From the IMG/VR virus record IMGVR_UViG_3300020045_014840, positions 1-36,880 of that record: a DNA stretch of 36,880 bases, one strand, 5' to 3'. Source of the stretch: a virus (taxonomy: Duplodnaviria > Caudoviricetes). The notes beneath the pieces were generated by a model. It did no database searches, was not told the DNA's origin, and worked only from the letters and a program-made list of their open reading frames with translations. A program made the translations under genes and the position numbers. Each line of letters begins with the position of its first letter. Position 1 is the stretch's first letter. Shown here piece by piece: positions 1 to 36,880 of this stretch.

Positions 1-121
1 TGCGCCTATCCTACCGAGATGTCTTCCCCTCCAATCTCAAAATATTCTTTGAAGAGCAAAAACAATGGAAACCCTAAGATGGAGCGTAGATGCAAAAGCT
101 CTGGAAACTTTTACGACCTAC
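1..121 (+). repeat. Terminal direct repeat, copy 1
   Basis: tgcgcctatc...ttacgacctac identical to 36760-36880; most likely the assembler overlap of a circular contig. Confidence 0.97.
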
Positions 122-331
122 CGACACCTCAAACGATGGAACGCCGACATGCATGAAGCTTTAAAAGCTCTTCAGTTCTACCGGATGGTCAGGACTGCGT
201 TAAACACCCCTGGAATCGGTTTACTTGAGGTGACTAGGGGTCTTGATGGGGAAATCGAGGTAAACGTCTCTAATCGCAAATTAGAGGCCAAAGAAAGGAA
301 AAAGCGTTATGACCCCTGTTCCGTCGACTAG
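65..331 (+). CDS. Hypothetical early protein
   Basis: 88-aa ORF in a chain of overlapping + strand ORFs that continues across the circular junction from 34718. Confidence 0.7.
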   Translation: METLRWSVDAKALETFTTYRHLKRWNADMHEALKALQFYRMVRTALNTPGIGLLEVTRGLDGEIEVNVSNRKLEAKERKKRYDPCSVD

Positions 332-536
332 CCGAAAAGAAGGAAGGTCCCTGGAGTCGATTTCTTTATCCAGAAAGAATAAAATGTGGATATTGTGCAT
401 TCATACCCAGGAAAATAACATCATGCACACAGATGCGAGACAATTCGTCTTCAAAGAGGACGCCATAAAATTCTTGTACGCTCATTGCCTGGTAGTTATG
501 AACGGAGCTGACGCCTATGACCATCCCACAGATTGA
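309..536 (+). CDS. Hypothetical early protein
   Basis: 75-aa ORF overlapping both neighbours; Ser/Thr/Pro-rich N-terminus MTPVPSTS. Confidence 0.55.
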   Translation: MTPVPSTSRKEGRSLESISLSRKNKMWILCIHTQENNIMHTDARQFVFKEDAIKFLYAHCLVVMNGADAYDHPTD

Positions 537-747
537 AACCAAAGTGACGACCTCAAACTCCTGCAACCGATGGTTTTGCTGTTTTGGCTCTAAGTGTTGC
601 ACCAAGGAAGAAGAAGGGGACACGCCGAAGTCTGGCGAAAAGATCTCAGTGACTACGACTAAAACAGTTACGGAAGAAAAAACCACGAAAGTATATAAAT
701 CTCGACACTGGCATAGGAAGAAGAATGAGCTCAGTGAGTCCCGATGA
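517..747 (+). CDS. Small Cys-cluster protein
   Basis: 76 aa; GGAG upstream; SCNRWFCCFGSKCC motif followed by Thr/Lys-rich tail. Confidence 0.7.
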   Translation: MTIPQIETKVTTSNSCNRWFCCFGSKCCTKEEEGDTPKSGEKISVTTTKTVTEEKTTKVYKSRHWHRKKNELSESR

Positions 748-1036
748 TAAAGATCTTACCAAACTCCTATTAAAGTCCTGTAAAAAGATCGGACTTGATG
801 AAGAACTTTTCGCAGTCCTCTTAGCGTCCTATAATGCGGATAGGAATAGTTTAAAGAGCCAACTCGAAAAACTCATCCTGTTTATGATGGTGAAAGCTGC
901 TGCCTTGGCTCATGAAGCTAATAACGAATACAAAGATCCGATTGAATATTTAATTGTCCTTGTAAACCAGGGGGTATGGGTTCACAAACTAGCAAAACTA
1001 AGGAAATTACAAAATGACCCACGTATCTCCCGATGA
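725..1036 (+). CDS. Hypothetical protein, paralog of 1014..1262
   Basis: Shares VSPDD and LxMMxKAxxxAH...PIExL...G with the next ORF. Confidence 0.75.
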   Translation: MSSVSPDDKDLTKLLLKSCKKIGLDEELFAVLLASYNADRNSLKSQLEKLILFMMVKAAALAHEANNEYKDPIEYLIVLVNQGVWVHKLAKLRKLQNDPRISR

Positions 1037-1262
1037 TGTCTTTGACGTTGAAGATGCCGACAAAGCCCTGTCGCTCGTTCTTTTTGAAGCTTCCGAGAAA
1101 ATCCCCGTCGGCGTCCTTCTTCTCTTGATGATGACCAAGGCTTCTTTCATCGCCCATACTTTCCTAGACGACAGTGAAAACCCAATAGAAGTCCTTGGAA
1201 ATCTGCTGGATAAGGGGATATTCATCGACATGCTTCAAAGGAAGAAATATGAGAAGCTTTAA
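1014..1262 (+). CDS. Hypothetical protein, paralog of 725..1036
   Basis: AGGA upstream; shared motifs with previous ORF. Confidence 0.75.
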   Translation: MTHVSPDDVFDVEDADKALSLVLFEASEKIPVGVLLLLMMTKASFIAHTFLDDSENPIEVLGNLLDKGIFIDMLQRKKYEKL

Positions 1263-1365
1263 CGAATGGCTCGACTGGTACGAGAATCTCAATCCGTACG
1301 AACCTCCCTATCTTGACCCTCCGGACAAGGAAGGCGATGAGGAAGAGGATTTTGAGGAAGACTAA
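1249..1365 (+). CDS. Small acidic protein (38 aa, not in ORF track)
   Basis: MRSFNEWLDWYENLNPYEPPYLDPPDKEGDEEEDFEED; AAGGAAG upstream; fills the gap to the convergent J-domain gene. Confidence 0.6.
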   Translation: MRSFNEWLDWYENLNPYEPPYLDPPDKEGDEEEDFEED

Positions 1366-1880
1366 GGTCCTCTTTTATTTCTAAAAAAATCCCTGACTGC
1401 CGCGCCTCTTTTTTCTTTATCTTGCCAAAGCTTCAAGTCAATCTTAAACCCAGTAATAATATTTTCAATCGCCTTCAACTGAGCATCGGAAAGATTTCTT
1501 CCTTGGGACAACTGATCCAAACAACTCTCTACAAAAGTAGCCCTGAAAGCAGGATGTGTAAGAGCATAAGCTAAAATACTTTCCAATTTTACAACAACTT
1601 CTGGATGGGGCTCTTTTTTCTTCCTAGGCCATTGATGTTTAGTGGATGCGTCATAATTTCTTCTGGACGAAGGATCGATGAGAGTTTCGTAAGCTTCTCG
1701 CATCTTCTTATAAATTTCAGCATCTCCACCTACATCGGGATGGTGTCGTTTCGCCATCTTCCTAAATGAAACCTTAATCTCATCAAAAGACGCATCTCTT
1801 TCTACCTCAAGGAGAGCGTAAAAATTAATTCGTGGTTTTATATTATCAAACAAAGCCCCTCCCCCATTCTCCTCCATCAT
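1362..1880 (-). CDS. DnaJ (J-domain) protein
   Basis: NFYALLEVERDASFDEIKVSFRKMAKRHHPDVGG...EAYETLIDPSSRRNYD, canonical J-domain with HPD motif. Confidence 0.92.
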   Translation of the reverse strand: MMEENGGGALFDNIKPRINFYALLEVERDASFDEIKVSFRKMAKRHHPDVGGDAEIYKKMREAYETLIDPSSRRNYDASTKHQWPRKKKEPHPEVVVKLESILAYALTHPAFRATFVESCLDQLSQGRNLSDAQLKAIENIITGFKIDLKLWQDKEKRGAAVRDFFRNKRGP

Positions 1881-2247
1881 CAGCCCAAGTCGTTCTTCGT
1901 AAATACCCTTTTTCTTTCATGGCATTCAGCGTGGAAGAAAGATTTCTCGAAAATTTATCGTGAGGTTCTTGAAAGGATAAATAGTAGCAGCACCTATCTT
2001 TCAAATAAAAGTTACAACATAAGAATTCTTTTACTCGCTTCTTCGTTCGAATATCCCCCACCCAAGGCTTAGGCATGTAAACGGTCTCAGAATCCTGGAC
2101 CTCCAATCGCAATTGGAGATCATCCTCTTGAATCAGAAAGATCACATTATTTAGCACTTTGATAAAGTGAGTGCTATTTTTATCCATATCCGGATGGGGA
2201 CCGGAAGAACGGTCGGAAGATTTCCTAGAAGGGGCATCAAACTGCAT
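1846..2247 (-). CDS. Hypothetical protein in the replication operon
   Basis: 133-aa ORF overlapping rep and the J-domain gene; GAGG upstream. Confidence 0.65.
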   Translation of the reverse strand: MQFDAPSRKSSDRSSGPHPDMDKNSTHFIKVLNNVIFLIQEDDLQLRLEVQDSETVYMPKPWVGDIRTKKRVKEFLCCNFYLKDRCCYYLSFQEPHDKFSRNLSSTLNAMKEKGYLRRTTWADDGGEWGRGFV

Positions 2248-3148
2248 CAGAACCTCTCACCCTAACCCCAGTCCACTTAATCAATATCTCTAGAAAAGCT
2301 TCCTCAGGAAGATCCAATGACACCGAATCCCCTGATTCTTGGTTAGTTACGGATGCTTTATAGATCAAGAGGATATTCGCCTTTCCAAGGCAATTTTTAA
2401 TCTTGATAGCCGTTTCTAGGTTAGCTTGAATACGAGCCCCGTTATTCTTGGAAGGGTTCCTCTTAGCCCAAATTTTATCAAAATTTCTCCTCAAACCATC
2501 CGCAGACTGGAGAACGTTAACCCAGAAAGGGTCATCTTCAAAGGCATATCGGATTGCCTCCATTAGGTCTTTAAATGCCCTACAATCGATTTTCATAGCC
2601 TTATCCATGTCCGAAGCCCAATTTTCAATTTTAGGCCTTTTAAAGGCAGGATGAGAGGCTAGGATGCGTTTCTCTAACTCTTGGGCAAGTTCTAAACCTT
2701 CTTTTGAGAAGCCAGTCTCTCTTCTCCCACTTTTTGAAGGGGGAGGACATAGACTATTCTCTCCACTATTCTCTCCTCTATATGACGCATCGCCTTGAGG
2801 GGGGTGCAGGTTTCGACAGGGGGGGGTGTTGTTTTGTTCAGGGGGGGGTGTTGTTTTGTTCAGGGGTGAAATTTTTAAAGAAGATCTTAAAATCCTCTTA
2901 TTTCCATCCCTTAGTTCCATTTTCAAAAGTCCCTGTTTTCTAAGCCTCTCCAGTCCTACTTGAAGGGCTCTTTCTGAAACCTGCATGACCTTCACTAGAT
3001 AGGCATTAGAGGCAATACATCCGGTGTCTGGATGGTCTAGACTATCGATCTCGGCCCATAGCACCTTATCAAAGGCACTTAACTCTGGGTGCAGCCATAT
3101 TTCTCTGGGAATCCATATCCCTTTAAAGGCGCGTGGCAAATCTTCCAT
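2237..3148 (-). CDS. Phage replication initiator (lambda O-like, N-terminal winged HTH)
   Basis: FKGIWIPREIW..ELS..DKVLWAEIDSLD...GCIASNAYL N-terminus typical of phage initiators; central Pro-rich linker encoded by tandem repeats; AGGAG SD. Confidence 0.85.
   Translation of the reverse strand: MEDLPRAFKGIWIPREIWLHPELSAFDKVLWAEIDSLDHPDTGCIASNAYLVKVMQVSERALQVGLERLRKQGLLKMELRDGNKRILRSSLKISPLNKTTPPPEQNNTPPCRNLHPPQGDASYRGENSGENSLCPPPSKSGRRETGFSKEGLELAQELEKRILASHPAFKRPKIENWASDMDKAMKIDCRAFKDLMEAIRYAFEDDPFWVNVLQSADGLRRNFDKIWAKRNPSKNNGARIQANLETAIKIKNCLGKANILLIYKASVTNQESGDSVSLDLPEEAFLEILIKWTGVRVRGSDAV
2817..2866. repeat. 22-bp tandem iterons, putative replication origin
   Basis: CAGGGGGGGGTGTTGTTTTGTT x2 exact (2817-2860) plus partial CAGGGG, inside the rep gene next to an AT-rich tract. 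Confidence 0.8.
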
Positions 3149-3161: not shown

Positions 3162-3233
3162 CTAATGTTTTACGTAAACATTATTTAGGGTTGTGATAAA
3201 TCGGGAGGGTATTTTAAGATGACTGATGTCCAT
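3162..3233 (-). CDS. Putative rep leader peptide (23 aa, not in ORF track)
   Basis: MDISHLKIPSRFITTLNNVYVKH; AAGGA 10 nt upstream; its TAG overlaps the rep SD (TAGGAG). Confidence 0.5.
   Translation of the reverse strand: MDISHLKIPSRFITTLNNVYVKH
3191..3220 (+). promoter_or_regulatory. Putative sigma70/66-type promoter antisense to the rep leader
   Basis: TTGTGA-N18-TAAGAT, directly upstream of a + strand terminator. Confidence 0.45.
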
Positions 3234-3335: not shown

Positions 3336-3722
3336 TTAAATTAAACTCTTGTCTAATCCATTGATGTTCAATACATAAGCCGATCCCCTTCTGGTGAAAG
3401 GGATCATCCTCTTCCTAATCAGATAGTAAATTCTCTGTGGAGGGACACCTAGTTCATTCGCTAGCTGTACCGGTGAATAGAGCCCCTTCTCAGCATCAAA
3501 GACTCTCTTACCCTTCTCATCTACTGTATTCAGACGGTTATAGAGCATCTCCTCATATTCATAGACATCGTGGATATCTACAAACCAGTGCTTCTCTCTC
3601 TTTTTAGCTTTGAGCCTTCCTCGGCGAATAGCCATGTAGATCGTCTGCGGGTGAACTTCGCGGTATTCGGCAACTTGTTTGACTTTCATCATAGTGATAA
3701 ATATTTTACATGGCAGGCGCAT
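3336..3722 (-). CDS. euo: EUO-like tandem HTH transcriptional regulator (chlamydial early upstream ORF homolog)
   Basis: QTIYMAIRRGRLKAKK, WFVDIHDVYEY, FDAEKGLYSPVQLANELGVPPQRIYY, RRGSAYVL match the Chlamydia EUO motifs as I recall them; start may be 3692 (MMKVKQ). Confidence 0.85.
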   Translation of the reverse strand: MRLPCKIFITMMKVKQVAEYREVHPQTIYMAIRRGRLKAKKREKHWFVDIHDVYEYEEMLYNRLNTVDEKGKRVFDAEKGLYSPVQLANELGVPPQRIYYLIRKRMIPFTRRGSAYVLNINGLDKSLI

Positions 3723-3903
3723 ATCTTAAAAGACAATCATGCTCCATCTCCACCCAGATCATGCCGCAGTCCTGGCACTCAAGGACATCTTTGTAGACCA
3801 CCTTAAATCTTCCTTCCTTTAATCTGGACTTACACTTAGGACAACAGTCATGTCTCTTAAAATCAGTGGACTTATGCTTCAGGCTACGAGAATGGATCTT
3901 CAT
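3706..3903 (-). CDS. Zinc-ribbon protein
   Basis: CPKC...CQDC; 3' end abuts/overlaps euo; start uncertain. Confidence 0.55.
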   Translation of the reverse strand: MKIHSRSLKHKSTDFKRHDCCPKCKSRLKEGRFKVVYKDVLECQDCGMIWVEMEHDCLLRYAPAM

Positions 3904-4341
3904 GCTAAATACCCCTTGTTTGGAAAGCGGAAGACGATAGGGTATAGGAAATCTTTTAGCAATGCTAAATGGGTAGAGATCGGAGGCCAGTGCATCTACG
4001 CCAGGTCTTTATGGGAGGCCAACTACGCCAGGTATTTGGAATGGCAAAAGGAAAGAGGTTACATAGTTGACTGGCTTCACGAGCCCAAGACCTTTTGGTT
4101 CGAAAATATCAAGAGGGGCGTAAGAAGCTACCTTCCCGACTTCAAGGTGATTGAGACGCCAGAGAAATGGCACTGGGTTGAAGTGAAAGGATATATGGAT
4201 GCCAAATCAAAGACCAAACTGACCCGGTTCAAAAAGTACTATCCTAAAGAGCGCCTCGTCCTTATTGATGAGACCTGGTTCAGGCGCAATAGTTCTAAGA
4301 TAAGACTGATTATCCCAGATTGGGAAAGGGGAAATGTATGA
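3850..4341 (+). CDS. PD-(D/E)xK endonuclease (DUF1064/TnsA-like; possible resolvase)
   Basis: RSLWEANYARYL...W.HEP..F...YLPDF...WVEVKGYM; true start probably downstream (e.g. 3892). Confidence 0.8.
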   Translation: MSLKISGLMLQATRMDLHAKYPLFGKRKTIGYRKSFSNAKWVEIGGQCIYARSLWEANYARYLEWQKERGYIVDWLHEPKTFWFENIKRGVRSYLPDFKVIETPEKWHWVEVKGYMDAKSKTKLTRFKKYYPKERLVLIDETWFRRNSSKIRLIIPDWERGNV

Positions 4342-4430
4342 AATGGGCGGTGTGCTTTATCCTGCTTTGCTGTGCTGTGTCGGTGGCACTGTATGTAAAT
4401 TGGAAGGTGAATGGGATGGATGAGGAATAG
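4338..4430 (+). CDS. Small single-TM peptide (30 aa, not in ORF track)
   Basis: MKWAVCFILLCCAVSVALYVNWKVNGMDEE; ATGA overlap with upstream stop; overlaps the tail of the opposite-strand HTH gene. Confidence 0.4.
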   Translation: MKWAVCFILLCCAVSVALYVNWKVNGMDEE

Positions 4431-4626
4431 GCGGCTCTTCCCTTCGGATGTCTTCTATAGACTTGACATTCCCCTTGGTAAACCTTTCTACATGGTAGAG
4501 CGCCATCTTCCCAGGCTTCCTGTACCCAGAGATCCAGTGATGGATATAAGCGCGATCGTACCCTATCTTCCTGGCCAGCTGACTGATCGAGATGCGGTTA
4601 TGGTATAGCCAAGTCATTAATTTCAT
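4357..4626 (-). CDS. Cro/XRE-like HTH regulator
   Basis: MKLMTWL...ISISQLARKIGYDRAYIHHWISGYRKPG...VERFTKGNV, typical Cro-like HTH; divergent from the recombination operon. Confidence 0.85.
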   Translation of the reverse strand: MKLMTWLYHNRISISQLARKIGYDRAYIHHWISGYRKPGKMALYHVERFTKGNVKSIEDIRREEPPIPHPSHSPSNLHTVPPTQHSKAG

Positions 4627-4697: not shown

Positions 4698-4871
4698 TTG
4701 AAACGTGACCCTTTGACTCTACACCAAAAGATTCTCATCGTACTGGCCCTAGCCATCATAACTTTGGTCTTTGTCTATCTCAGCTATGAACATTTTGAAT
4801 TCATGAAACAAGCCGAAATCTTAACTTTAAAAATCCAAAAGGAGTTAACCAATGGAATTTCTACCAAGTGA
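4698..4871 (+). CDS. Single-TM small protein (57 aa, TTG start, not in ORF track)
   Basis: AAGAGG SD; KILIVLALAIITLVFVYLSY hydrophobic helix. Confidence 0.6.
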   Translation: MKRDPLTLHQKILIVLALAIITLVFVYLSYEHFEFMKQAEILTLKIQKELTNGISTK

Positions 4872-5613
4872 CTATGAAAGTCCCAAGAGCAATAGTAATT
4901 ATTTTAAACTGCAAGACGGAGAGAACAAGATCCGCATCCTCAGCCGCCCTATCCTAGGATGGCTAGACTGGAAGGACAAAAAGCCTCTCAGATTCCGGAT
5001 GAATGCCAAACCTACCCATTCCATCGATCCTAATCAAGCCGTCAAACACTTTTGGACGATGATCATCTGGGACTATGCCCAGAAAAAGATTTGCATCTTT
5101 GAGATGACGCAGGCGAGTATCTGGAAAAGGATCGAGACCTTGTCAATTGATGCAGACTGGGGCGCCCCTTATAGGTATGACCTCAAGATTACGAAGAGCG
5201 GCTCGCAGAAAGACACCAAATACACGATCTTACCTGTCGCTCCTAAAGAGATCTGGCCAGAGATACGAGATGCCTTTAAAGAGCTTCCTATTGACCTTGA
5301 AGAGCTATTCAAGGGAGGAGACCCGTTCAACGGTGTACAGAGGACCTTGGGCTTCTGGGAGATCCCCTCCGCTATCTCTAAAGAAATGAACACCGAGATT
5401 AAGGGAGAGTGTGTTTCTAAGGAAGAAGCTCAAGAGATAGAGGACACTATCGAAAGGGCGATCAGTCCTTATGACAAGGATTGGAGAGCAGCAGCCTTGA
5501 GAGCTTTCAAGATCGACAGCTTTGAGAAGCTAGAAAAAAGGCTCCATGACTTGATGATTAAGCGGATCGATGAGAAGAGGGAAAAGATCCTCTCCGAAGA
5601 CGTGCCCTTTTAA
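4852..5613 (+). CDS. Putative ssDNA-binding/annealing protein
   Basis: YFKLQDGENKIRIL...YDLKITKSG..KDTKY phage SSB-like motifs; acidic-aromatic C-terminus EDVPF; next to the exonuclease; AAGGAG SD. Confidence 0.7.
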   Translation: MEFLPSDYESPKSNSNYFKLQDGENKIRILSRPILGWLDWKDKKPLRFRMNAKPTHSIDPNQAVKHFWTMIIWDYAQKKICIFEMTQASIWKRIETLSIDADWGAPYRYDLKITKSGSQKDTKYTILPVAPKEIWPEIRDAFKELPIDLEELFKGGDPFNGVQRTLGFWEIPSAISKEMNTEIKGECVSKEEAQEIEDTIERAISPYDKDWRAAALRAFKIDSFEKLEKRLHDLMIKRIDEKREKILSEDVPF

Positions 5614-5665
5614 TGGAAAACCCCATCCTTAAAAAAGATGGGGTGCGCAAAACTTCGATAGGACA

Positions 5666-6577
5666 ATGAAGAGAACATTTATGAGCGTAAAAGAAGAACC
5701 AAAAAAATACAAGCTTATCGAGCTTATTCAGAGAAGCCCAGAATGGCTTAACTTTAGAAAAGGGAAGATCGGAGCCTCCCAAGTAGGAGCTATCCTAGGC
5801 GTAGATCCTTTCAAGACAGCTCTCCAACTCTGGACGGATATCGTCTTTGATCGGAAAACTCCTGTAAATAGCGCCATGCAACGGGGGATCGATGGAGAAG
5901 ACGGAGCTCTAGAATGGCTGAACAAGGTAGAAGACTCCGTAGATTTCGATAGCTTTTATCCGGCAGTTTTACAGTCAGTGGAATATCCATTCCTCATTGC
6001 AAGTCTGGATGGGTTTAGAGAAAAAGACATTCAGGCTGTAGAGATCAAATTCCCAAGCAAAAAGGTCCACGAATATCTTTTGGAAACTGGCAGACCTCCC
6101 GAAAGATACATGCCGCAGCTCCAATTCCAAATGTATATCGGCGGCTTTGACAAGATGTTCTACCTGTCATGTTTTCAGGACGAGAAGGTTTTGAGGGTGG
6201 TTGAGAGAGACCAAAAATTCATCGACGAGATGATCCCTGAAATTTTGGCCTTCAGAACCTCTATAATCGATTGTAAGCCTCCAGAACCTGTTGACAAGGA
6301 TGTAATCCAGATAGACGATCCTGAGGCTGTTCTGAAAGCCGAAAGATTCATCGAGCTGGATCGGTTGATCTGGGAGCTGTCACAGGAAAGGGATGCGCTG
6401 AGGCTGGAGATGACGGAGATGGCGAAGTATCAAAAGGTACAGATCGGAGCCTTGATGCTTTCAAAGGTGATTCGGCCAGGGAATGTGAATTGGGAGGCGG
6501 TAGAAGCCTTGAAGGGGATCGATCTGACGGCGTACAGGAAGAGTCCAATAGAATCTTGGAGACTTTCTTATGAGTGA
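5666..6577 (+). CDS. YqaJ / lambda-exonuclease family protein
   Basis: QRSPEWLNFRKGKIGAS...AMQRG...ASLDG...VEIK...QLQFQM. Confidence 0.93.
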   Translation: MKRTFMSVKEEPKKYKLIELIQRSPEWLNFRKGKIGASQVGAILGVDPFKTALQLWTDIVFDRKTPVNSAMQRGIDGEDGALEWLNKVEDSVDFDSFYPAVLQSVEYPFLIASLDGFREKDIQAVEIKFPSKKVHEYLLETGRPPERYMPQLQFQMYIGGFDKMFYLSCFQDEKVLRVVERDQKFIDEMIPEILAFRTSIIDCKPPEPVDKDVIQIDDPEAVLKAERFIELDRLIWELSQERDALRLEMTEMAKYQKVQIGALMLSKVIRPGNVNWEAVEALKGIDLTAYRKSPIESWRLSYE

Positions 6578-8673: not shown

Positions 8674-8829
8674 TTACCATTCCCCTTCTGGAGATGAACC
8701 GGTGAAGTCTATTTTGGCTCCTGTCTGAGCTTCGATGAGATCTTCTACCTTTTCCTCAACGACATTATCAGGCCAAACATTCATCCATGAACAGCTAGAT
8801 AAAAAACTTATGAAGATGATGTAGCGCAT
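8674..8829 (-). CDS. Small lipoprotein (51 aa, not in ORF track)
   Basis: MRYIIFISFLSSC lipobox then DNVVEEKVEDLIEAQTGAKIDFTGSSPE; GAGGAGG SD. Confidence 0.8.
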   Translation of the reverse strand: MRYIIFISFLSSCSWMNVWPDNVVEEKVEDLIEAQTGAKIDFTGSSPEGEW

Positions 8830-8951
8830 AGTGCCTCCTCATCATAAATAGGCCATGTTATGACTGGGATGGGATCCGAGGAGGGAAACTGATCGGACTC
8901 CTCCGCTAAGATTTTAGTGATACTGAAAAACAGAAAGAAAATCTTGGTCAT
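8808..8951 (-). CDS. Small signal-peptide-like protein (47 aa, not in ORF track)
   Basis: MTKIFFLFFSITKILAEESDQFPSSDPIPV...; fills the gap between two lipoprotein genes. Confidence 0.45.
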   Translation of the reverse strand: MTKIFFLFFSITKILAEESDQFPSSDPIPVITWPIYDEEALCATSSS

Positions 8952-8957
8952 AGGAAC

Positions 8958-9128
8958 CTATTGTTGAGCTTTAGCTTCAGACTTGTCTATAGGAAATACT
9001 TGGATCTGTATTCCTTTTCCTGTATCAAGAGAGCTTCGATGCACTTGAGCATCCACGTCAAATCCTGGCTTTCCATTCATACAGCTAGCCATCATGAGAG
9101 TAATCACAATCAACATTCCGTACTTCAT
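8958..9128 (-). CDS. Small lipoprotein (56 aa, not in ORF track)
   Basis: MKYGMLIVITLMMASC lipobox; GGAG upstream. Confidence 0.7.
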   Translation of the reverse strand: MKYGMLIVITLMMASCMNGKPGFDVDAQVHRSSLDTGKGIQIQVFPIDKSEAKAQQ

Positions 9129-25565: not shown

Positions 25566-25568
25566 TGT

Positions 25569-26261: not shown

Positions 26262-26263
26262 AG

Positions 26264-26485: not shown

Positions 26486-26486
26486 T

Positions 26487-26800: not shown

Positions 26801-27009
26801 AAAAGAAAAAGCCCAAGGGCCGGATGGTATCAGGCAAGAAGTACGCCCAGGACCTAGAGAAGTATGACGACAAGGAAGCAGATGTCGATAATCACCCATC
26901 CAGGCGCCCTAAAGATATAGCAGATGCTCTAGCCAAGTCTAAAGGCTCAAGAAGCAAGAAGCCACGGGTGAAGCCACAGAAGAAAATGGCCGGTCGCGGT
27001 AGGAGGTAA
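26797..27009 (+). CDS. Small basic protein
   Basis: 70 aa Lys/Arg-rich. Confidence 0.7.
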   Translation: MKKKKPKGRMVSGKKYAQDLEKYDDKEADVDNHPSRRPKDIADALAKSKGSRSKKPRVKPQKKMAGRGRR

Positions 27010-29513: not shown

Positions 29514-29772
29514 AGTTCCAGAATACTATCAGATCGGCGATCGATCTAATATGACGGTAGAAAGACTCCTCGTCATAGTGGAAAATATGTATCGGGATCT
29601 CGCTACTGCGGTTAATAAGAAACCAGACGTGTATCAGCGTGCAAGTAATGGGCTTACGACTGATACTTTCTTATCCAACGGAGATTTAAATATCAATACA
29701 TCAACAAGAAGAGTTGAGATGCTGACCGAGCACAGTTCTACATCGGCGGTTGTCTGGACAGTTCTTAGTTAA
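29506..29772 (+). CDS. Hypothetical tail-region protein
   Basis: MAKVPEYYQ start with GAGGGG SD overlapping the previous gene. Confidence 0.7.
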   Translation: MAKVPEYYQIGDRSNMTVERLLVIVENMYRDLATAVNKKPDVYQRASNGLTTDTFLSNGDLNINTSTRRVEMLTEHSSTSAVVWTVLS

Positions 29773-29784: not shown

Positions 29785-30432
29785 ATGGCAGCAGCATGGC
29801 TCCCCGCTCTCTTCTCCGCAGGCGCAAGCTTAGGAGGAGCCTATTTATCCAGTAGAGGCAAGAAAGAAACCAAGATCCAGTCACAACAGCGCCACTTGAT
29901 CGACGACCTTCTGAACTCGCTCAAGGGGAGAGGATCGTATAACGATCTATTTACTGCGAGCGAGGAAGATTTTAATAGGTCATTTAGAGATCCGGCGATG
30001 CAAAGGTTCAGAAGTCAGGTAACGCCACAAATTCAACAGGGATTCATCGCCAGCGGCCAGCAAAGGGGAACTTCGCTCGATGATACTTTAACTAGAGCCG
30101 GCGTAGATATGGATCAACTCCTCAATCAACATTACATGCAATACCAGCAAGGGGCGATGGATAGAAGAGCGGGAGCTTTGAATAGTATCTTAGGACAGGG
30201 AGCTGGAGCGCCTAGACAGATGAGTGGCGGAGAAGCTTTAGGACAGGGGATCAGTGGTTATCTCTCTCAACCAGGGGCTAAGGATGATATCTCAGCGATC
30301 ATCAATTCAATTCTTGGACAAAAACCACAAGATGATCAAAGAAATCTACTTCCTGATGTTTATATGCCGCAGCCTAAAGGATTTGAGAAAGATCCTCAAT
30401 ATTATGATCCATATTCAGGAGTCATGCGATGA
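29785..30432 (+). CDS. Putative DNA ejection/pilot protein (gp7-like)
   Basis: Ala/Gly-rich hydrophobic N-terminus MAAAWLPALFSAGASLGGAYL, Gln-rich body; AAGGA SD. Confidence 0.65.
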   Translation: MAAAWLPALFSAGASLGGAYLSSRGKKETKIQSQQRHLIDDLLNSLKGRGSYNDLFTASEEDFNRSFRDPAMQRFRSQVTPQIQQGFIASGQQRGTSLDDTLTRAGVDMDQLLNQHYMQYQQGAMDRRAGALNSILGQGAGAPRQMSGGEALGQGISGYLSQPGAKDDISAIINSILGQKPQDDQRNLLPDVYMPQPKGFEKDPQYYDPYSGVMR

Positions 30433-31178
30433 GTGCCCCATCCCCATTTGATGTAGGAAGATCGATCGGACAAAATGTAAGCGGAGCTTTTAAAGAACAA
30501 AGAGACAGGAGCGCCTTAGACGATATCTTAAGTCAAGCCATGAATGCGGAAGACCCAGAATCACATAATGACGTGATCCGTCAAATCATCATGCGCGTAT
30601 CCCCAGAAAGGCGTCCAGAAGCCTTACAGTTCGTTCAGGCGCGACAGCAACAGTTACAGAGCCAGCAAATGAGACAGAGGCAGCAACAGGCGTTGCAGAG
30701 CCAAGGAATCGATCCCAGCGTTGCGAACTTAGAGCCAAGCGTGCAGAAGGAGTTTATTAAAAGTAGAGGCAAACAGCAACAAGAGTCAGCTGGCCAAGAC
30801 GCCACTCAGAGAGCTTTCACTAGACTTCGCGAACTCCACAAAAAGGGAAAAGTTGGATTTGGATCAACTATTACTCCGGCTTTCATGGGAGAAGAACAGG
30901 CACAAGATGTAGGAGAATTCAATTCACTTAGTGGTGCGCTAGAAGCTGCCCTTGTAGATAAAGTAAGCCGAGGAACTCTATCTAACGCCCGCTTCAAGTA
31001 CATCACAGAAACGCTTCTTCCTAAACCTGGAGATCGCTTAAAGACCATCGAAGGTAAGCTTAAAGGTCTGGCCGATGTGTTAGGTCTAAAAATGGAAGAT
31101 CTCCCAGAGATAGAACAAAAACAAAAAAGTAAAGAACGCCAAAAACCCAAGCTGTCATTGAAGGATATTTTCAAATGA
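30429..31178 (+). CDS. Putative DNA ejection protein (gp20-like)
   Basis: Gln-rich helical protein, ATGA coupling, AGGAG SD. Confidence 0.6.
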   Translation: MSAPSPFDVGRSIGQNVSGAFKEQRDRSALDDILSQAMNAEDPESHNDVIRQIIMRVSPERRPEALQFVQARQQQLQSQQMRQRQQQALQSQGIDPSVANLEPSVQKEFIKSRGKQQQESAGQDATQRAFTRLRELHKKGKVGFGSTITPAFMGEEQAQDVGEFNSLSGALEAALVDKVSRGTLSNARFKYITETLLPKPGDRLKTIEGKLKGLADVLGLKMEDLPEIEQKQKSKERQKPKLSLKDIFK

Positions 31179-33193
31179 ACCCTTTTGAAAAGGCCAGAAA
31201 AGAAGGTTATTCTGACAAGGAAATATTTGAATACCTTCAGTCAGATGAAAAGTACTCCTCAAAAATAAAAAAAGCCAAATCTGAAGGCTACAGCGATGAA
31301 GACATATCTTCCTTTCTCTCTAAGTCTCCAGAGAAAGAAAAGCCTCAACGCCCTTTCTATGAACAATATATAGAGCGCCCCACACAGGTATTAGGACAGA
31401 GTGCAGCAGCGGGATTGAGATCTTTGCCACGGAGTGCCTTTGACCTGTTAAAAGCTGGAGTGCAAGGTGCTGGCGGGGATATCTCTAAACTAGAAGAAGC
31501 GCAAGCGAACGCCCCTCAATGGTTAAAAGACACGGCAAGCGAGACATTCCCAAGTTACGAAGAAATGAGACAGCGCCAAATTCAAGAAGGAGGAGCACAA
31601 GCTGAAGGACCGTTCGAAAAGGGGATAGAAAAACTAGGAAGATTTGCTGGAGAAGCTCCGTACTTTGGAGGGATTGGAGGAATACGAGGAGCAGCGGGGA
31701 TCGTAGGAGCAGCGGCAGGAGCGCAAGCAGGAGAAGAAATGGATCTAAATCCCTTGGGACAAGCTGCACTCACATTAACTGGGTCTTTCTTAGGACATAC
31801 TGCACCTACTCCCTTTCAGAAACTCTCCAAGCAAAAATTGACTCCAGAAGTAGAAAGCTATATTAAAGCCAGCAAAGAACTGGGGATTGATCCGCTTCTC
31901 ACTGGGATGAATCCCAATCAAATCCAGAAAGTAGCACAGAAATGGGCTACCCACGGTATTGGTGGCCCTGAAATCCTTCAAGAGGCGTACAAGAGAAGAT
32001 CTCTCCAAGTGGCTAATGCATTTGAAAAGGCTATGGATGAAGCAGGAGAGAACTTATTCAGGGAACCAGAACAAGCGGGGCAAGCTCTTAAAGAAGGAAT
32101 CACCGATGCTACAAAACAGATAGAACATACTAAATCTCAACTTTATCGTGCCGTAGACAAGACCCTTCCAAAAGACGCAACAATCAAAATAGCTGATCCC
32201 GTCAAATTAGAGAATCATCTTAAATCATCACTGGAAGCCTTAGAAGACAGTCTTGCATTAGCTCCGGCCGAATCTTCCGTAAATCTGCGTCTTAAAAAGC
32301 TGAAAGGGAATCTAGAAAGCCTTCTCGATGTGCGGGACAATGAATTTCCTATTAAAACTTTAGAGGACACCAGCAGGTCTTTACATGACGTAATCAAATA
32401 TGAAAGACCTGGAGGAGCAGACAAGCTTCTCATTCCATTCGATCGCGCTATTAGAAAAGAGTTAGACAATTATGGAAAGATCAATCCCAAGTATGCTACT
32501 GCGCGTAAAGCGGCTAATGAATACTTTGCTAATGATGTCGTCCATATCCGTCAAAACCTTCTCCAATCAATAGCACGTAGCGAAAGACCAGAAAGCACGC
32601 TTGCCATCATGAATACAGTGAGTGGCATAAAGAATGTAGAGCGTGCGCTGAATTCTCTTCCTAATGGGAAGAAGATGACAGAGGCTCTGAAGAGATACAA
32701 GCTCCAATCCATGCTCAAAGACAAACTCATCGATGGGTCTACCGGACTGATGAAGGTAGGAGGATTAAAAAACTTCCTTAACAGGAAAACGGATCAGTAT
32801 CCAGTATTCAGAGAACTCGCAGGACCTAAAGGAATAAGAACCCTCAAACTTCTGGAAGAATCAGGAAAAGGACTAGAGAAAGGCTTTAACAATCTAGTTA
32901 ACCCATCAAAGACGGCTGACACTCTGATAGCCATTCAATCAGTCGTAGGACCATTTGAAAGAATTAATGAAGGGGTTACAAAAGGGCTACAAGGAAACTT
33001 AATCGGGGGAGCATCTGAAGCTGCTTTGGGAGCGGCTGGAATCTTAGCCCCTAAATGGGTAGCCAAAATAATCTTAAAACCTAAACTGGCGGAACAGGTA
33101 TTCGCCCTTTCAAAAGCGGCTCAAAAATCAGACTGGAAAGCTTTCAATAGAATCTTGGACATTTTGGACGATGATCTTAAAAAAGAAGATTGA
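31175..33193 (+). CDS. Putative large DNA ejection protein (gp16-like)
   Basis: Twin KAxxEGYSDxxI repeats at the N-terminus, Gly/Ala-rich segments, last gene of the structural operon. Confidence 0.65.
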   Translation: MNPFEKARKEGYSDKEIFEYLQSDEKYSSKIKKAKSEGYSDEDISSFLSKSPEKEKPQRPFYEQYIERPTQVLGQSAAAGLRSLPRSAFDLLKAGVQGAGGDISKLEEAQANAPQWLKDTASETFPSYEEMRQRQIQEGGAQAEGPFEKGIEKLGRFAGEAPYFGGIGGIRGAAGIVGAAAGAQAGEEMDLNPLGQAALTLTGSFLGHTAPTPFQKLSKQKLTPEVESYIKASKELGIDPLLTGMNPNQIQKVAQKWATHGIGGPEILQEAYKRRSLQVANAFEKAMDEAGENLFREPEQAGQALKEGITDATKQIEHTKSQLYRAVDKTLPKDATIKIADPVKLENHLKSSLEALEDSLALAPAESSVNLRLKKLKGNLESLLDVRDNEFPIKTLEDTSRSLHDVIKYERPGGADKLLIPFDRAIRKELDNYGKINPKYATARKAANEYFANDVVHIRQNLLQSIARSERPESTLAIMNTVSGIKNVERALNSLPNGKKMTEALKRYKLQSMLKDKLIDGSTGLMKVGGLKNFLNRKTDQYPVFRELAGPKGIRTLKLLEESGKGLEKGFNNLVNPSKTADTLIAIQSVVGPFERINEGVTKGLQGNLIGGASEAALGAAGILAPKWVAKIILKPKLAEQVFALSKAAQKSDWKAFNRILDILDDDLKKED

Positions 33194-33195: not shown

Positions 33196-33423
33196 TTATC
33201 GGTTTACTTCTTCTACGTGCCTTTGCCATGCATCTTTGATCTTTCTACGAAAAGGACGTGTTTTACATTCAATCTTTTCAGTTCCTACCTCAATACAACA
33301 TCCCATCATTAGAAAAGCCCAAAGTACAAAGAATCCCACAAAAAATATCCCAAGCGCCCATCCAAGGAAACTGAGAACAGCCGCTGAACCAAATAACAAT
33401 ATCATCACGATAAGAAAATTCAT
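33196..33423 (-). CDS. Two-TM membrane protein (holin-like)
   Basis: About 40-aa bilobed hydrophobic N-terminus and basic C-tail; GGAGG SD. Confidence 0.7.
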   Translation of the reverse strand: MNFLIVMILLFGSAAVLSFLGWALGIFFVGFFVLWAFLMMGCCIEVGTEKIECKTRPFRRKIKDAWQRHVEEVNR

Positions 33424-33441: not shown

Positions 33442-33582
33442 TTACAAGATCCTCTCTATAAAATATGTCATTCCTATTCCTACACACAATATCACACAAA
33501 ACACTATTCCATACCCTTCCAAGAAACTAAGAATTCCTGCCGACACAAATAGGACTATCGACGCAATAGTAAAAGGATTCAC
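33442..33582 (-). CDS. Two-TM membrane protein, probable paralog of 33196..33423 (GTG start)
   Basis: MNPFTIASIVLFVSAGILSFLEGYGIVFCVILCVGIGM; GTGA overlap with the upstream stop. Confidence 0.65.
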   Translation of the reverse strand: MNPFTIASIVLFVSAGILSFLEGYGIVFCVILCVGIGMTYFIERIL

Positions 33583-33782
33583 TCTTTCCCCCTTCGTCCT
33601 CTTTTCATCTCGCGCTCCATCATTTGGATGTATTTCTCTTCCAAGCGGCACAGGCGCCCGTGGAAGTCTGTAATGGCAGCGTGGAAGCCTTTCATTTCTT
33701 TCTGGGACTCCCTGTGAAGATACCAGACGGAGCCCACTGTAGAGGCTGCTATCGTTAGTGCGTGAAACCATTCCATTGTCAT
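33579..33782 (-). CDS. Single-TM plus coiled-coil protein
   Basis: (MT)MEWFHALTIAASTVGSVWYL...DFHGRLCRLEEKY; start placed by the promoter at 33789-33829. Confidence 0.75.
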   Translation of the reverse strand: MTMEWFHALTIAASTVGSVWYLHRESQKEMKGFHAAITDFHGRLCRLEEKYIQMMEREMKRGRRGKE

Positions 33783-33923: not shown

Positions 33924-34421
33924 TCAATCAGGCTGCTTGAAGTCGCCCCGCATACCCGCGGCTAGGAGCTTGGCGAAGTTCGTCGCCTCTTCCTGTTTGA
34001 TGCCGCGGTCGCGTTCAGCTTGGCGGTCTTTTAAGTGTTCTTCGTGATGGTAAAGCATCCGGTCATGAAGAGAGGCTGAACGATTGAAGGCCGCCTGATG
34101 TAACTCACCCTTAGCGAGTTTCTCTTCGCGATTACGCGCTATTCGCTCTTTTGCCTTGCGAAGAGCTAAGGAGAACTTAGGGCACTTCTCAGCAAAATCA
34201 CACAGATCTTGCGCTAGATATGGCTTGCGATCGGTGAAGGCATAAAGATTGATTGAAGTATCAGCCTGCGACCATTTATCAAGATCATCCGCTTCCTTTT
34301 CGTAGTCGTATTCGCGAGGCCGACCACCCCCATTATCTACTGAAAGCGTATGACCAGGTACAAATGGAGTTTTGTGATTAGACTTTTTTTTGGGCTTCTT
34401 TTCGGATTCGGTGGCGGCCAT
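33924..34421 (-). CDS. Putative terminase small subunit
   Basis: PFVPGH...GGRPREYD...FSLALRKAKERI..NRE pattern of TerS proteins; AGGGGG SD. Confidence 0.6.
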   Translation of the reverse strand: MAATESEKKPKKKSNHKTPFVPGHTLSVDNGGGRPREYDYEKEADDLDKWSQADTSINLYAFTDRKPYLAQDLCDFAEKCPKFSLALRKAKERIARNREEKLAKGELHQAAFNRSASLHDRMLYHHEEHLKDRQAERDRGIKQEEATNFAKLLAAGMRGDFKQPD

Positions 34422-35471: not shown

Positions 35472-35753
35472 ATGAAAAATGACAGATTCTATTTCGATGG
35501 TATGATTTATTCCGACCAAGAAAAATTTGATAAATCCAGGTCTGAATGGATAGAATCCGCAACCACTCCTTTATCACGAGAAAGAATGCTCCAGCGCATG
35601 TGTCAAGACATTTCTTTAGATTTATTAAACACACCGGACGGTCCGCATATCCTATCAAACTACGAGTTTTCATTGATATGCTTTGAATTTTCCCTAAAAT
35701 TCATTGACGAATGCCGCCAGAGAATGAGTAAAAATTTAAAGGATCCGCAATGA
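35472..35753 (+). CDS. Hypothetical protein
   Basis: 93 aa, AAGGA SD. Confidence 0.7.
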   Translation: MKNDRFYFDGMIYSDQEKFDKSRSEWIESATTPLSRERMLQRMCQDISLDLLNTPDGPHILSNYEFSLICFEFSLKFIDECRQRMSKNLKDPQ

Positions 35754-35962
35754 GCGGCAAAAAGAACTATCCCTACACCTGGAGAATAGAAGGACCCCCT
35801 AAAAACAAAATAACGTTAGCTATCGGCGATATAGATTACCAAGCTGACCCAACCGATACTGCGTCCGATTACAAATTTTTGGAGAGAATTTTAATCAGTT
35901 TTGCGGAACAGATTAGGGAAGAAGGAAACGAAATAGAAGAATTCAATTATCACGAGACATGA
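35750..35962 (+). CDS. Hypothetical protein
   Basis: 70 aa, AAGGA SD, ATGA overlaps. Confidence 0.7.
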   Translation: MSGKKNYPYTWRIEGPPKNKITLAIGDIDYQADPTDTASDYKFLERILISFAEQIREEGNEIEEFNYHET

Positions 35963-36186
35963 AAATCATGAAATTCATCAAAAACTCCGACGGAGATCTC
36001 ATCAACATAGAGCGCATGGAATACATCTTCTTGTTAGACCAAGGGGAAGCCACAAAAGAACGCTTTGAAATCGTGGCTAGTGGCGGAGAAAGACCCTATG
36101 TTATAAAAAAGTATCGAAGCGAAAGCGCAGCTAACGGATTTCTGCATCGTCTTTACCAAGCCCACAAATTCGAGGTCCCTGAATAA
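35959..36186 (+). CDS. Hypothetical protein, probable paralog of 36355..36588
   Basis: FIKNSDGDLINIE...FEIVA...VIKKYRSESAANGFL. Confidence 0.7.
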   Translation: MKIMKFIKNSDGDLINIERMEYIFLLDQGEATKERFEIVASGGERPYVIKKYRSESAANGFLHRLYQAHKFEVPE

Positions 36187-36190
36187 TTTT

Positions 36191-36358
36191 ATGCCAACCA
36201 CCCCAAAATTCTGCCCCAAAGGCCACAAACTGAGTTACTCCACCTTGTACGACGCCAAGTACTGTCGCATCTGCAACCAGTGGACGGAGATTGCCTCCCG
36301 CGATCGTCCCCCAGCTCCCAAGCCCTACATGAAAACAGACAACAGGAGAACACCATGA
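36191..36358 (+). CDS. Small zinc-ribbon protein (55 aa, not in ORF track)
   Basis: FCPKGH...YDAKYCRICNQW; ATGA overlap with next gene. Confidence 0.65.
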   Translation: MPTTPKFCPKGHKLSYSTLYDAKYCRICNQWTEIASRDRPPAPKPYMKTDNRRTP

Positions 36359-36588
36359 GTAAATCGTGGATACAGTGTGAAGATCTAGAATGGATCAACC
36401 TAGACCACGCTTGCTGGGTTTACTGCACCTTTGAAAAAGGAAAGAAAAATTCAGGGGGCTACTGGGAAGTTTGTGCTGAATTTATAAAACCCAAGACACC
36501 TCTTCATGTAATAGCTTCCTATCCCACCGCAAAAGAAGCACGCGCCTTCATGGATGATTTGATGCACTTACTTCGCCTAACAAAATGA
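36355..36588 (+). CDS. Hypothetical protein, probable paralog of 35959..36186
   Basis: AGGAG SD places start at 36355; WIQCEDLEWINLD...WEVCA...VIASYPTAKEARAFM. Confidence 0.72.
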   Translation: MSKSWIQCEDLEWINLDHACWVYCTFEKGKKNSGGYWEVCAEFIKPKTPLHVIASYPTAKEARAFMDDLMHLLRLTK

Positions 36589-36836
36589 CCGTCGTCTACT
36601 GCCTGACTTCTCCCAACGAAGTGACCCTCCCCGCCATCTACACTGGCACGTCCCCCGACCACCTGGCGCGGGAGATCCGTCTCGCGATGAAAGCGCATGA
36701 CCTCTGCGGCGTGGACTGCTTCGCCAAGATTTGGCGACCTATCTCGCCGATGACCTACATGCGCCTATCCTACCGAGATGTCTTCCCCTCCAATCTCAAA
36801 ATATTCTTTGAAGAGCAAAAACAATGGAAACCCTAA
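36585..36836 (+). CDS. Hypothetical protein
   Basis: 83 aa, ATGA overlap; its end overlaps the start of the 65..331 gene across the junction. Confidence 0.6.
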   Translation: MTVVYCLTSPNEVTLPAIYTGTSPDHLAREIRLAMKAHDLCGVDCFAKIWRPISPMTYMRLSYRDVFPSNLKIFFEEQKQWKP

Positions 36837-36880
36837 GATGGAGCGTAGATGCAAAAGCTCTGGAAACTTTTACGACCTAC
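36760..36880 (+). repeat. Terminal direct repeat, copy 2
   Basis: Identical to 1-121. Confidence 0.97.

What the first reader, a model, noticed from the sequence alone, without database searches (positions are those of the whole stretch)
1..36880. Complete tailed dsDNA phage probably infecting Chlamydiae
Seen: a circular, complete podovirus-like genome with an EUO-like gene and no recognisable endolysin. Established: the characterised chlamydiaphages are small ssDNA Microviridae (Chlamydiamicrovirus). Inference: this is a Caudoviricetes phage of an obligate intracellular, probably environmental (protist-associated) chlamydia, forming a three-level phage-bacterium-eukaryote system. From memory only, the DFHGRLC..EE motif (33579..33782) and the DNxxEExxExxI...TG..IDxT..SPE lipoprotein (8674..8829) also recall proteins in environmental chlamydial genomes.
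Basis: partly seen in the sequence, partly recalled or inferred. Interest (0 to 1): 0.85.

Follow-up and report, generated by a model that had tools for sequence, protein, structure and literature searches.

The report
Tailed phage carrying chlamydial master regulator
This is a complete 36.8-kb tailed virus from a large unnamed group with no recognisable cell-wall-cutting enzyme; it carries a relative of Euo, the developmental master switch otherwise known only from chlamydiae, so it likely infects environmental chlamydiae living inside other cells, a group whose only characterised viruses are tiny single-stranded ones.

Summary
Observation confirmed: a complete circular 36,759-bp tailed phage (121-nt end overlap; terminase, P22-like portal, N4-gp56-like capsid, three tail fibres; no integrase or lysin found). 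It belongs to a big unnamed clade (161 IMG/VR capsid relatives; named phages under 25% identical). The chlamydial host is well supported but indirect. (1) The gene at 3339-3692 is a full-length Euo-family regulator, kept by one portal-tree subclade; no full-length match was found in 802 Bacteroidota and Patescibacteria genomes. (2) Relatives carry the chlamydial-type dif site: 25 of 79 such viral loci share virion genes with the window, against 1 of 80 controls. (3) None of 19 near-complete genomes has any of five common lysin families. (4) Two relatives carry effector-like cargo (Inc-like, U-box). Against: no spacer or integrated copy was found. Four MAG labels on relatives are non-chlamydial (likely misbinning). 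The phage Euo lies outside the conserved chromosomal-type Euo clade. The window itself lacks dif. The scan noted related likely chlamydial phages before on other DNA. Host Chlamydiota about 0.8; Euo used to steer host development about 0.3.

The parts
1..121 (.). Terminal overlap with 36760-36880 (circular assembly / direct terminal repeat)
   Evidence: 100% identical 121-nt repeat; IMG/VR DTR, 100% complete
1362..1880 (-). J-domain (DnaJ) protein
   Evidence: PF00226 E 2e-17
2237..3148 (-). Replication initiator (lambda O/DnaD-like) with three internal 22-nt repeats at 2799-2864 (likely iteron origin)
   Evidence: PHROG replication-initiation hits E 7e-18 to 3e-11; repeat family D9
3163..3183 (.). 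21-bp palindrome in the gap between the Euo-like gene and the initiator; candidate operator
   Evidence: function untested
3336..3692 (-). Euo-family tandem winged-HTH regulator (118 aa; ORF open from 3722)
   Evidence: Two HTH_17; Atlas top three clusters Chlamydiota, one 'putative EUO'; 157 bits to family profile A1, which includes it; model pLDDT 91 with two helix-helix-hairpin units
3850..4341 (+). PD-(D/E)XK nuclease, Holliday-junction-resolvase-like
   Evidence: phrog_190 E 2e-16
4357..4626 (-). Cro-like HTH regulator
   Evidence: PF01381 E 3e-5; homologue cluster of 25 ORFs in relatives
4852..6577 (+). SSB/annealing-like protein and YqaJ/RecE exonuclease (recombination module)
   Evidence: phrog_1607, phrog_434, PF09588, TIGR03033
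6921..8672 (-). Tail fibre 3 (583 aa)
   Evidence: Repetitive G/T/S-rich protein; phrog_15750 C-terminus; shared with relatives
8674..9128 (-). Two small lipoprotein-like ORFs (8674-8829, 8958-9128); candidate outer-membrane lysis aids
   Evidence: Lipobox-like N-termini; first family in 9 ORFs of relatives; no Pfam or PHROG name
9338..12244 (-). Tail fibre 2 (968 aa)
   Evidence: Internal repeats; homologues in relatives
12248..13475 (-). Three conserved tail-associated ORFs (229, 109 and 66 aa)
   Evidence: Conserved in close and sister clades
13555..15909 (-). Tail fibre 1 (784 aa)
   Evidence: phrog_972 tail fibre E 8e-6
16187..17683 (+). Terminase large subunit
   Evidence: phrog_2; best named matches 35-37% (Burkholderia Bcep22/DC1, Erwinia phages)
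17680..18825 (+). N6/N4 DNA methyltransferase (absent from sister genome G003)
   Evidence: PF01555 E 1e-29
19059..21185 (+). P22-like portal
   Evidence: PF16510 E 4e-49; 1 of 50,697 named phage records matches, at 25% over 37%
21798..22445 (+). Likely scaffolding protein
   Evidence: Position before capsid, acidic coiled coil; conserved; inferred
22474..23412 (+). Major capsid protein, N4-gp56 family
   Evidence: TIGR04387 over cut-off; 82-99% identity in the best 80 of 161 IMG/VR relatives
23429..29772 (+). Head-completion and short-tail module (accessory proteins, likely adaptor 25569-26261, fibre-like 27105-27650, likely nozzle 27651-29513)
   Evidence: phrog_584, phrog_11355; conserved order; roles inferred
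29785..33193 (+). Three likely ejected (internal virion) proteins
   Evidence: Position and size as in short-tailed phages; no lytic domain found; inferred
33196..33423 (-). Small membrane protein with a 48-aa hydrophobic stretch and basic tail; holin candidate
   Evidence: Hydropathy scan; no family
33579..33782 (-). DFHGRL-family membrane-anchored coiled-coil protein; candidate lysis protein
   Evidence: Alignment A2; 5,952 homologues; 22 ORFs in 16 relative loci
33924..34421 (-). Likely terminase small subunit
   Evidence: Homologues lie next to TerL in relatives G021 and G846; inferred

Best explanation
This is a complete short-tailed dsDNA phage of a large unnamed Caudoviricetes lineage that likely infects environmental Chlamydiota, and it encodes a diverged Euo-family regulator predicted to act on the host's or its own developmental timing. 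Likely cycle (steps inferred unless noted): its three tail fibres bind chlamydial cells, most plausibly extracellular elementary bodies, which carry it into a eukaryotic host. It then replicates in the growing reticulate bodies from a lambda-type initiator and iteron origin, with a RecE/SSB module (genes shown). It packages DNA with TerL and a P22-like portal (shown). It exits by membrane-acting small proteins without an endolysin, which suits a host with a ring or no sacculus (absence shown, exit route inferred). This genome has no integrase and no dif site, so it is likely lytic or episomal; relatives use the host's Xer/dif system, an integrase or ParA. The Euo-like protein most plausibly represses late genes and keeps the cell in the replicative form while phage is made.
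For: Euo family. The three nearest Atlas clusters are chlamydial, one named 'putative EUO'. [quoted passage not shown] 28 of 98 homologues show that exact spacing, and 25 of them fall in one well-supported, mostly short-branched clade; the window protein keeps both Tyr (Y19, Y89). The family profile scores phage copies at 94-147 bits but nothing above 41 bits in 401 Bacteroidota or 401 Patescibacteria genomes. The four Euo-bearing close genomes (window, G003, G010, G023) form one portal clade, support 96; a sister-clade phage, G874, has one too. dif. The arm GTCTGATAA occurs in 19 rows of the Kono et al. table, 14 of them all the Chlamydiae. The full pattern occurs exactly in close relative G021. 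25 of 79 viral loci with it encode window virion homologues, against 1 of 80 loci with the E. coli-type dif. It is found in 1 of 301 Bacteroidota and 0 of 301 Patescibacteria genomes. Lysins: 0 of 19 near-complete genomes for PF00959, PF01510, PF01464, PF13539 and PF05838, and none among 299 relative-protein Pfam scans. Cargo in relatives: two Inc-like two-helix membrane proteins in G014 and a weak U-box protein in G009 (E 7e-4, below cut-off). An unrelated contractile-tail lineage carries the same dif, palindrome or DFHGRL genes, which points to host-linked traits.
Against: No direct link. A capsid scan of 185,579 GTDB species genomes found 2 hits, a Bacteroidales and a Parcubacteria MAG, and none in Chlamydiota. 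None of 160 capsid loci lies on a contig over 41 kb, so no integrated copy was seen. The two named DFHGRL homologues are archaeal MAG bins. The phage Euo-like proteins lie outside the canonical clade, among many long-branched homologues, so the family could be mainly a phage excisionase-like family. The window protein has His in place of Arg47, and only 3 of 43 close viral records carry the gene. The window has no chlamydial dif (up to 3 mismatches), no 19-bp palindrome and no match to the Euo consensus within 2 mismatches. The dif pattern is also used by Thermodesulfovibrio and Zymomonas, and 54 of 79 dif loci share no virion gene with the window. Protochlamydia has a full sacculus (PMC5814848 passage), so the lack of lysins does not fit every chlamydia. 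The integrase of relative G008 is closest to a Legionella record among plasmids (43%); ParA and a second integrase of relatives matched no chlamydial plasmid among the listed best hits.
Confidence: 0.78

Rival explanations
1. The phage infects another wall-poor or intracellular bacterium (for example Legionellales, Babelota/Dependentiae or a PVC relative) that shares protist hosts with chlamydiae. It got the Euo-like gene by exchange inside amoebae, or the gene is simply a phage excisionase-like family from which Euo once came.
For: Phage copies fall outside the canonical Euo clade. The G008 integrase is closest to a Legionella adelaidensis record (43%). U-box and membrane cargo are not unique to chlamydiae (established knowledge). 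No chlamydial genome hit in GTDB.
Against: The dif arm carried by relatives is that of all 14 Chlamydiae and of no Legionella row among the 19 rows holding it. The nearest cellular Atlas clusters are chlamydial. These phyla could not be searched directly here.
Confidence: 0.13
2. The MAG labels are right: the clade infects free-living or episymbiotic Bacteroidota, Patescibacteria or even archaea, and its lysin is of an unrecognised family.
For: Two GTDB contigs with 79-87% capsid identity lie in Bacteroidales and Parcubacteria MAGs, and each bin holds a second, more distant portal. Two DFHGRL homologues are named from Nitrososphaeria MAGs.
Against: The labels span three unrelated phyla, and the labelled capsid contigs are phage-sized (33 and 13 kb) with phage gene content, as expected from misbinning. 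Neither the full-length Euo family nor the dif type is found in those two phyla.
Confidence: 0.05
3. The host is a Nitrospirota, Desulfobacterota or Acidobacteriota organism that shares the GTCTGATAA dif arm, and the Euo-like gene is incidental.
For: Five non-chlamydial rows share the arm; some dif-bearing viral loci are clearly other, GC-rich phages.
Against: These bacteria have normal sacculi (established knowledge), yet 0 of 19 genomes carry the five lysin families. This does not explain Euo or the Inc-like cargo. These phyla were not searched.
Confidence: 0.04

Closest known systems
Chlamydiamicrovirus (Gokushovirinae, Microviridae), the characterised chlamydiaphages
   Same: Proposed host phylum; life inside a bacterium inside a eukaryotic cell
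   Different: Those are about 4.5-kb ssDNA tail-less viruses (PMC3091885 passages); this is a 36.8-kb tailed dsDNA phage with no shared genes
[quoted passage not shown]
   Same: Show that tailed-phage DNA reaches environmental chlamydiae (PMC7846284 and PMC5010888 passages)
   Different: Partial and, by the tail tip L gene, long-tailed. The window's TerL matched no chlamydial record among the 21 PLSDB hits. This is a complete short-tail genome.
Tailed phages of intracellular symbionts: phage WO of Wolbachia (PMC5062602, search listing only), the cryptomonad symbiont phage of George et al. 2023 (title seen in a reference list), APSE (recalled)
   Same: Three-level phage-bacterium-eukaryote setting; relatives of this phage carry eukaryote-facing cargo, as WO does
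   Different: Different host phyla (Proteobacteria). No close homologues among 50,697 named phage records: capsid under 25%, portal one 25% hit. Carriage of the host's developmental master regulator is not described for them (recalled).
Chlamydial Euo (master repressor of late genes)
   Same: Tandem excisionase-like winged HTHs, linker motif, two of three DNA-binding residues
   Different: About 30-40% identity, outside the canonical clade, His for Arg47, phage-borne next to the replication initiator
P22-like (Lederbergvirus), Bcep22-like (Lessievirus) and N4-like (Schitoviridae) phages
   Same: P22-family portal; TerL 35-37% to Bcep22/DC1; N4-gp56-family capsid
   Different: No virion RNA polymerase, half the size of N4; no tailspike, integrase or lysis cassette as in P22; no genus-level similarity

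Membership tests
Caudoviricetes | Terminase large subunit | tested here: met
   phrog_2 E 7e-23; 581 named phage records match
Caudoviricetes | Portal protein | tested here: met
   PF16510 168 bits
Caudoviricetes | HK97-type major capsid protein | tested here: met
   TIGR04387 over cut-off; Atlas clusters Uroviricota capsids; the fold itself was not modelled
Podovirus morphotype | Short tail: no tape measure, tube or sheath; adaptor, nozzle and ejection proteins | tested here: inconclusive
   No tape-measure or sheath family found; gene order fits; roles of 25569-33193 are inferred
Chlamydiamicrovirus / Microviridae | Small circular ssDNA genome with jelly-roll capsid and rolling-circle Rep | tested here: not met
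   36.8-kb genome with tailed-phage head module
Schitoviridae (N4-like) | Giant virion RNA polymerase, about 60-80 kb genome | tested here: not met
   Largest ORF is a 968-aa fibre; no RNAP family
Euo family | Two tandem excisionase-like winged HTH domains joined by the conserved linker | tested here: met
   architecture as in PMC4989314
Euo family | DNA-binding residues Y31/R47/Y100 (Waddlia numbering) | tested here: inconclusive
   Y19 and Y89 kept, His35 for Arg, one-residue linker insertion (alignment A1)
Euo (orthologue of the chromosomal gene) | Falls inside the slowly evolving, vertically inherited chlamydial clade | tested here: not met
   Quick tree of 98 rows, 145 columns: phage copies outside the starred canonical clade; canonical rows were labelled by residue spacing, not by taxonomy
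Euo family | Binds Euo boxes and represses late promoters | not testable with these tools
   Needs EMSA or reporter assay
Phage of Chlamydiota | CRISPR spacer match from a chlamydial array | not tested
   No spacer collection reachable; published spacers were not compared
Phage of Chlamydiota | Integrated or binned copy in a chlamydial genome | tested here: not met
   One capsid-pattern scan of GTDB: 2 hits, neither chlamydial. It finds only close relatives; sister clades were not scanned.
Phage of Chlamydiota | Host-type signals (Euo family, chlamydial dif) enriched over controls | tested here: met
IMEX (elements integrating through host XerCD/dif) | dif-like site in the genome | tested here: not met
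   None in the window within 3 mismatches; present in relative G021 and in sister clades

The most novel reading that the evidence does not exclude
Environmental chlamydiae are preyed on by a family-level radiation of lysin-less tailed phages, and some of these carry a working copy of Euo that holds the infected cell in its replicative form by blocking conversion to elementary bodies. The chlamydial master regulator itself may have been domesticated from this phage excisionase-like family.
Probability: 0.28. Interest if true: 0.88.

Novelty: new variant of a known kind. Interest (0 to 1): 0.68.

Why it matters
No complete tailed phage of Chlamydiota was found in the six literature searches run (most subscription journals are not covered). 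A 2025 study mentions only unclassified viruses predicted to infect Chlamydiales (PMC12644861 passage). Environmental chlamydiae have CRISPR arrays whose spacers matched nothing (PMC5010888, PMC5583166 passages), and these genomes are concrete candidate targets. A 37-kb dsDNA phage lineage would supply the missing gene-transfer agent for a phylum long thought genetically isolated, and could become a genetic tool for protist-infecting chlamydiae. A phage-borne Euo makes two questions testable: whether viruses steer the chlamydial developmental cycle, and where Euo came from. Clade-wide loss of endolysins also offers a model for how tailed phages leave wall-poor hosts.

Tried and rejected
A first 'dif-like' site conserved in relatives was only the ribosome-binding site and start codon of the capsid gene; rejected. 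The window's own palindromes (268-286, 2101-2118, 24676-24699) have no further copies or no match to the clade palindrome. The Euo consensus has no match within 2 mismatches and 3 within 3; the promoter and terminator scan of 3100-4900 was at chance level. The DFHGRL family as a chlamydial marker was not supported: no PLSDB match with one member, and 2 of 120 listed homologues named, both archaeal bins. Cluster look-ups for 30 proteins gave no organism names. The Euo-like protein had no PLSDB or PDB sequence match and no Foldseek match at E 0.001; its weak rows were Xis, BldC and RacA-type HTHs. A viral scan with a canonical-type Euo found no relative. The clade palindrome is absent from the Pr. 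naegleriophila plasmid, so its claimed chlamydial distribution was not verified here. The terminase of G846 matched no chlamydial plasmid among the 15 listed of 186 records. The careful Euo tree did not finish, so the quick tree is used. The GH108 control rang nowhere, so that one lysin search is uninformative. No chlamydial chromosome could be searched, so Euo, dif and prophage tests in Chlamydiota itself remain open. Supplements of PMC4989314, PMC5010888, PMC7846284, PMC8242063 and PMC12644861 were not read and may hold spacer or host-prediction tables that bear on the host.


Full report
Observation. The window is one complete phage genome: the first and last 121 bases are identical, IMG/VR classes it as a 100% complete DTR record, and the unique length is 36,759 bp. 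I scanned 63 ORFs, picked from the 160 listed, against Pfam, PHROG and NCBIfam. They give TerL, a P22-like portal, an N4-gp56-family capsid, tail-fibre hits, a lambda-O/DnaD-like initiator with three internal 22-nt repeats, a YqaJ exonuclease and SSB-like protein, a resolvase-like nuclease, a Cro-like HTH, a J-domain protein and a methyltransferase. No integrase, tape measure, sheath, holin or lysin family was found, and there are no tRNAs.

Relatives. The capsid finds 161 relatives in IMG/VR (best 80 at 82-99%) and 207 in metagenome contigs. No contig among the 160 loci returned exceeds 41 kb, so no integrated copy was seen. Named phages are remote: capsid under 25%, one portal hit at 25% over 37% of the length, TerL 35-37%. 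I fetched 21 viral records whole or in large part. The head and tail core is conserved and the early region is not; G003 is a near sister. More distant sister clades (portal 24-45%) share tail fibres and small core genes. This is an unnamed lineage of at least family rank.

The Euo-like gene. The 118-aa protein has two HTH_17 domains and folds confidently as two helix-helix-hairpin units (pLDDT 91). Its three nearest Atlas clusters are chlamydial, one named 'putative EUO'; the next are Bacteroidota HTH proteins. PMC4989314 (passages) calls Euo the only conserved transcription factor unique to Chlamydiae, describes tandem excisionase-like winged HTHs and names Y31/R47/Y100 as DNA-binding residues. 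PMC4652624 (passages) shows it is vertically inherited and represses late genes. Among 98 homologues have exactly that residue spacing, and 25 of these fall in one starred, mostly short-branched clade. I take that clade as chromosomal Euo by spacing and by recall of the motif, since no call named the organisms. The window protein keeps both tyrosines, has His for Arg, and lies outside that clade among long branches. It is therefore Euo-family but not a recent copy of the host gene, and the direction of transfer is open. The 59-row profile finds full-length copies in 3 of 43 close viral records (94-147 bits) and in 1 of 35 sister-clade records (130 bits). In 401 Bacteroidota and 401 Patescibacteria genomes the best scores are 41 and 38 bits: single-HTH matches, apart from one 37-bit match across a stop codon. 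In a portal tree of 38 rows the four Euo-bearing close genomes form one clade (support 96, quick tree), so the gene was kept through the subclade's divergence.

Host-type DNA signals. Following leads from earlier scan notes, I tested dif sites. In the supplement of PMC3025954 (rows seen) the arm GTCTGATAA occurs in 19 rows: all 14 Chlamydiae and five others; with the right arm TTATGTT only Thermodesulfovibrio and Zymomonas remain beside the Chlamydiae. Close relative G021 carries the full pattern exactly; the window has nothing within 3 mismatches. An IMG/VR scan gave at least 121 matches. Of the first 80 loci (79 after dropping one duplicate), 25 encode homologues of window virion genes, 18 of them portal or capsid. 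For the E. coli-type dif the figures are 1 of 80 and 0 of 80. The pattern occurs in 1 of 301 Bacteroidota and 0 of 301 Patescibacteria genomes. A 19-bp palindrome emerged independently from the relatives. Of 76 distinct viral loci carrying it, 63 share window virion genes and 8 also carry the dif. It is in 6 of 19 close relatives in the portal tree, including Euo-bearing G023, but not in the window. I could not check that it is chlamydial (0 in plasmid pPNK). An unrelated contractile-tail lineage carries the palindrome, the dif or DFHGRL genes as well, which fits host-imposed traits. Weak, below-cut-off FtsK-gamma hits occur in 5 of 35 records, four of them dif-bearing, and none in the window.

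Lysis and cargo. Six-frame searches for PF00959, PF01510, PF01464, PF13539 and PF05838 found 0 of 19 near-complete genomes (the last control did not ring). Pfam scans of 271 and 28 further proteins, cluster representatives and larger singletons drawn from 1,842 called ORFs, found no lysin. PMC5814848 (passages) states that C. trachomatis has only a septal ring and Simkania no isolable sacculus, while Protochlamydia has a full one; the absence fits many but not all chlamydiae. Candidates for membrane-based exit are the hydrophobic ORF at 33196-33423, the DFHGRL anchor-plus-coiled-coil protein and two lipoproteins; all are unnamed and their role is inferred. Relative G014 has two proteins with paired hydrophobic helices and a Ser-rich N-terminus, like inclusion-membrane proteins (likeness recalled). 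G009 has a weak U-box protein.

Against. The single GTDB scan gave two hits, in a Bacteroidales and a Parcubacteria MAG, and each bin has a second distant portal. The two named DFHGRL homologues among 120 listed are archaeal MAGs. Such scattered labels on phage-sized contigs suggest misbinning, but they are the only labels obtained, and no Chlamydiota genome was hit. The G008 integrase is closest to a Legionella record.

Mechanism and verdict. Shown: a complete tailed phage, lambda-type replication genes, no integrase, dif or known lysin, an Euo-family gene. Inferred: a chlamydial host (about 0.8); entry on elementary bodies and growth in reticulate bodies; a lytic or episomal state, while relatives have dif, integrases or ParA; lysis without an endolysin; and use of the Euo-like protein to delay differentiation (about 0.3, the main alternative being a regulator of the phage's own early genes). 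Literature: six searches found no description of a complete tailed chlamydial phage. Known are Microviridae (PMC3091885 passages), phage remnants on plasmids and islands (PMC7846284, PMC5010888 passages), CRISPR arrays with unmatched spacers (PMC5010888, PMC5583166 passages; PMC8242063 passages note wider CRISPR occurrence) and unclassified viruses predicted for Chlamydiales (PMC12644861 passage). PMC11338181 passages concern gammaproteobacterial symbionts only. Electron-microscope reports of phage-like particles in amoebal chlamydiae are recalled and were seen in no call. Tailed phages of endosymbionts are a known kind, so this is a new variant: a new lineage, a likely new host phylum, and carriage of a relative of the host's master regulator.

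Noticed in passing
L459 / G846 (37,917 bp, DTR): Complete sister-clade phage whose IMG/VR id is of genome type rather than metagenome type. It has an exact chlamydial-type dif, three copies of the palindrome, a GroES gene and a capsid gene split by a homing-endonuclease-like ORF. Its recorded host would be a direct test.
   Followed up: partly
L215, L225, L231, L253, L263, L265, L459: Capsid genes of sister clades are split after about 96-105 codons, with the first piece ending in 'LAA', which suggests a shared intron site.
   Followed up: no
L184:17546-18789 (G014): Two adjacent Inc-like proteins with paired hydrophobic helices and a Ser-rich N-terminus; possible cargo aimed at the eukaryotic host.
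   Followed up: partly
L178:5723-6742 (G009): 340-aa protein with a glycine zipper and a weak U-box (E 7e-4), next to two DFHGRL genes and near an integrase.
   Followed up: partly
L437, L441, L446, L465: A second, contractile-tail phage lineage carrying the same palindrome, and in some loci the dif or DFHGRL genes; likely another chlamydial phage family.
   Followed up: partly
window 517-747: 76-aa ORF with a Cys-rich stretch (WFCCFGSKCC), 90% conserved in G003; resembles a eukaryotic lipid-anchoring motif (recalled). No family hit.
   Followed up: no
window 725-1262: Two tandem paralogous small ORFs (103 and 82 aa); G003 has only one.
   Followed up: no
window 2237-3148 vs G003 L172:1867-2505: The replication initiator is swapped for a non-homologous one in the 95%-identical sister genome, while the Euo-like gene stays in place.
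   Followed up: partly
L210:6996-7883 (G041): 296-aa protein made of about 35 copies of a 7-residue Cys-containing repeat.
   Followed up: no
L193:15599-16545 (G021): ParA plus a small partner gene in the same genome as the exact dif: both plasmid-like and dif-based maintenance.
   Followed up: partly
window 24676-24699 and 3163-3183: A perfect 24-bp palindrome between capsid-region genes, and a 21-bp palindrome upstream of the initiator.
   Followed up: no
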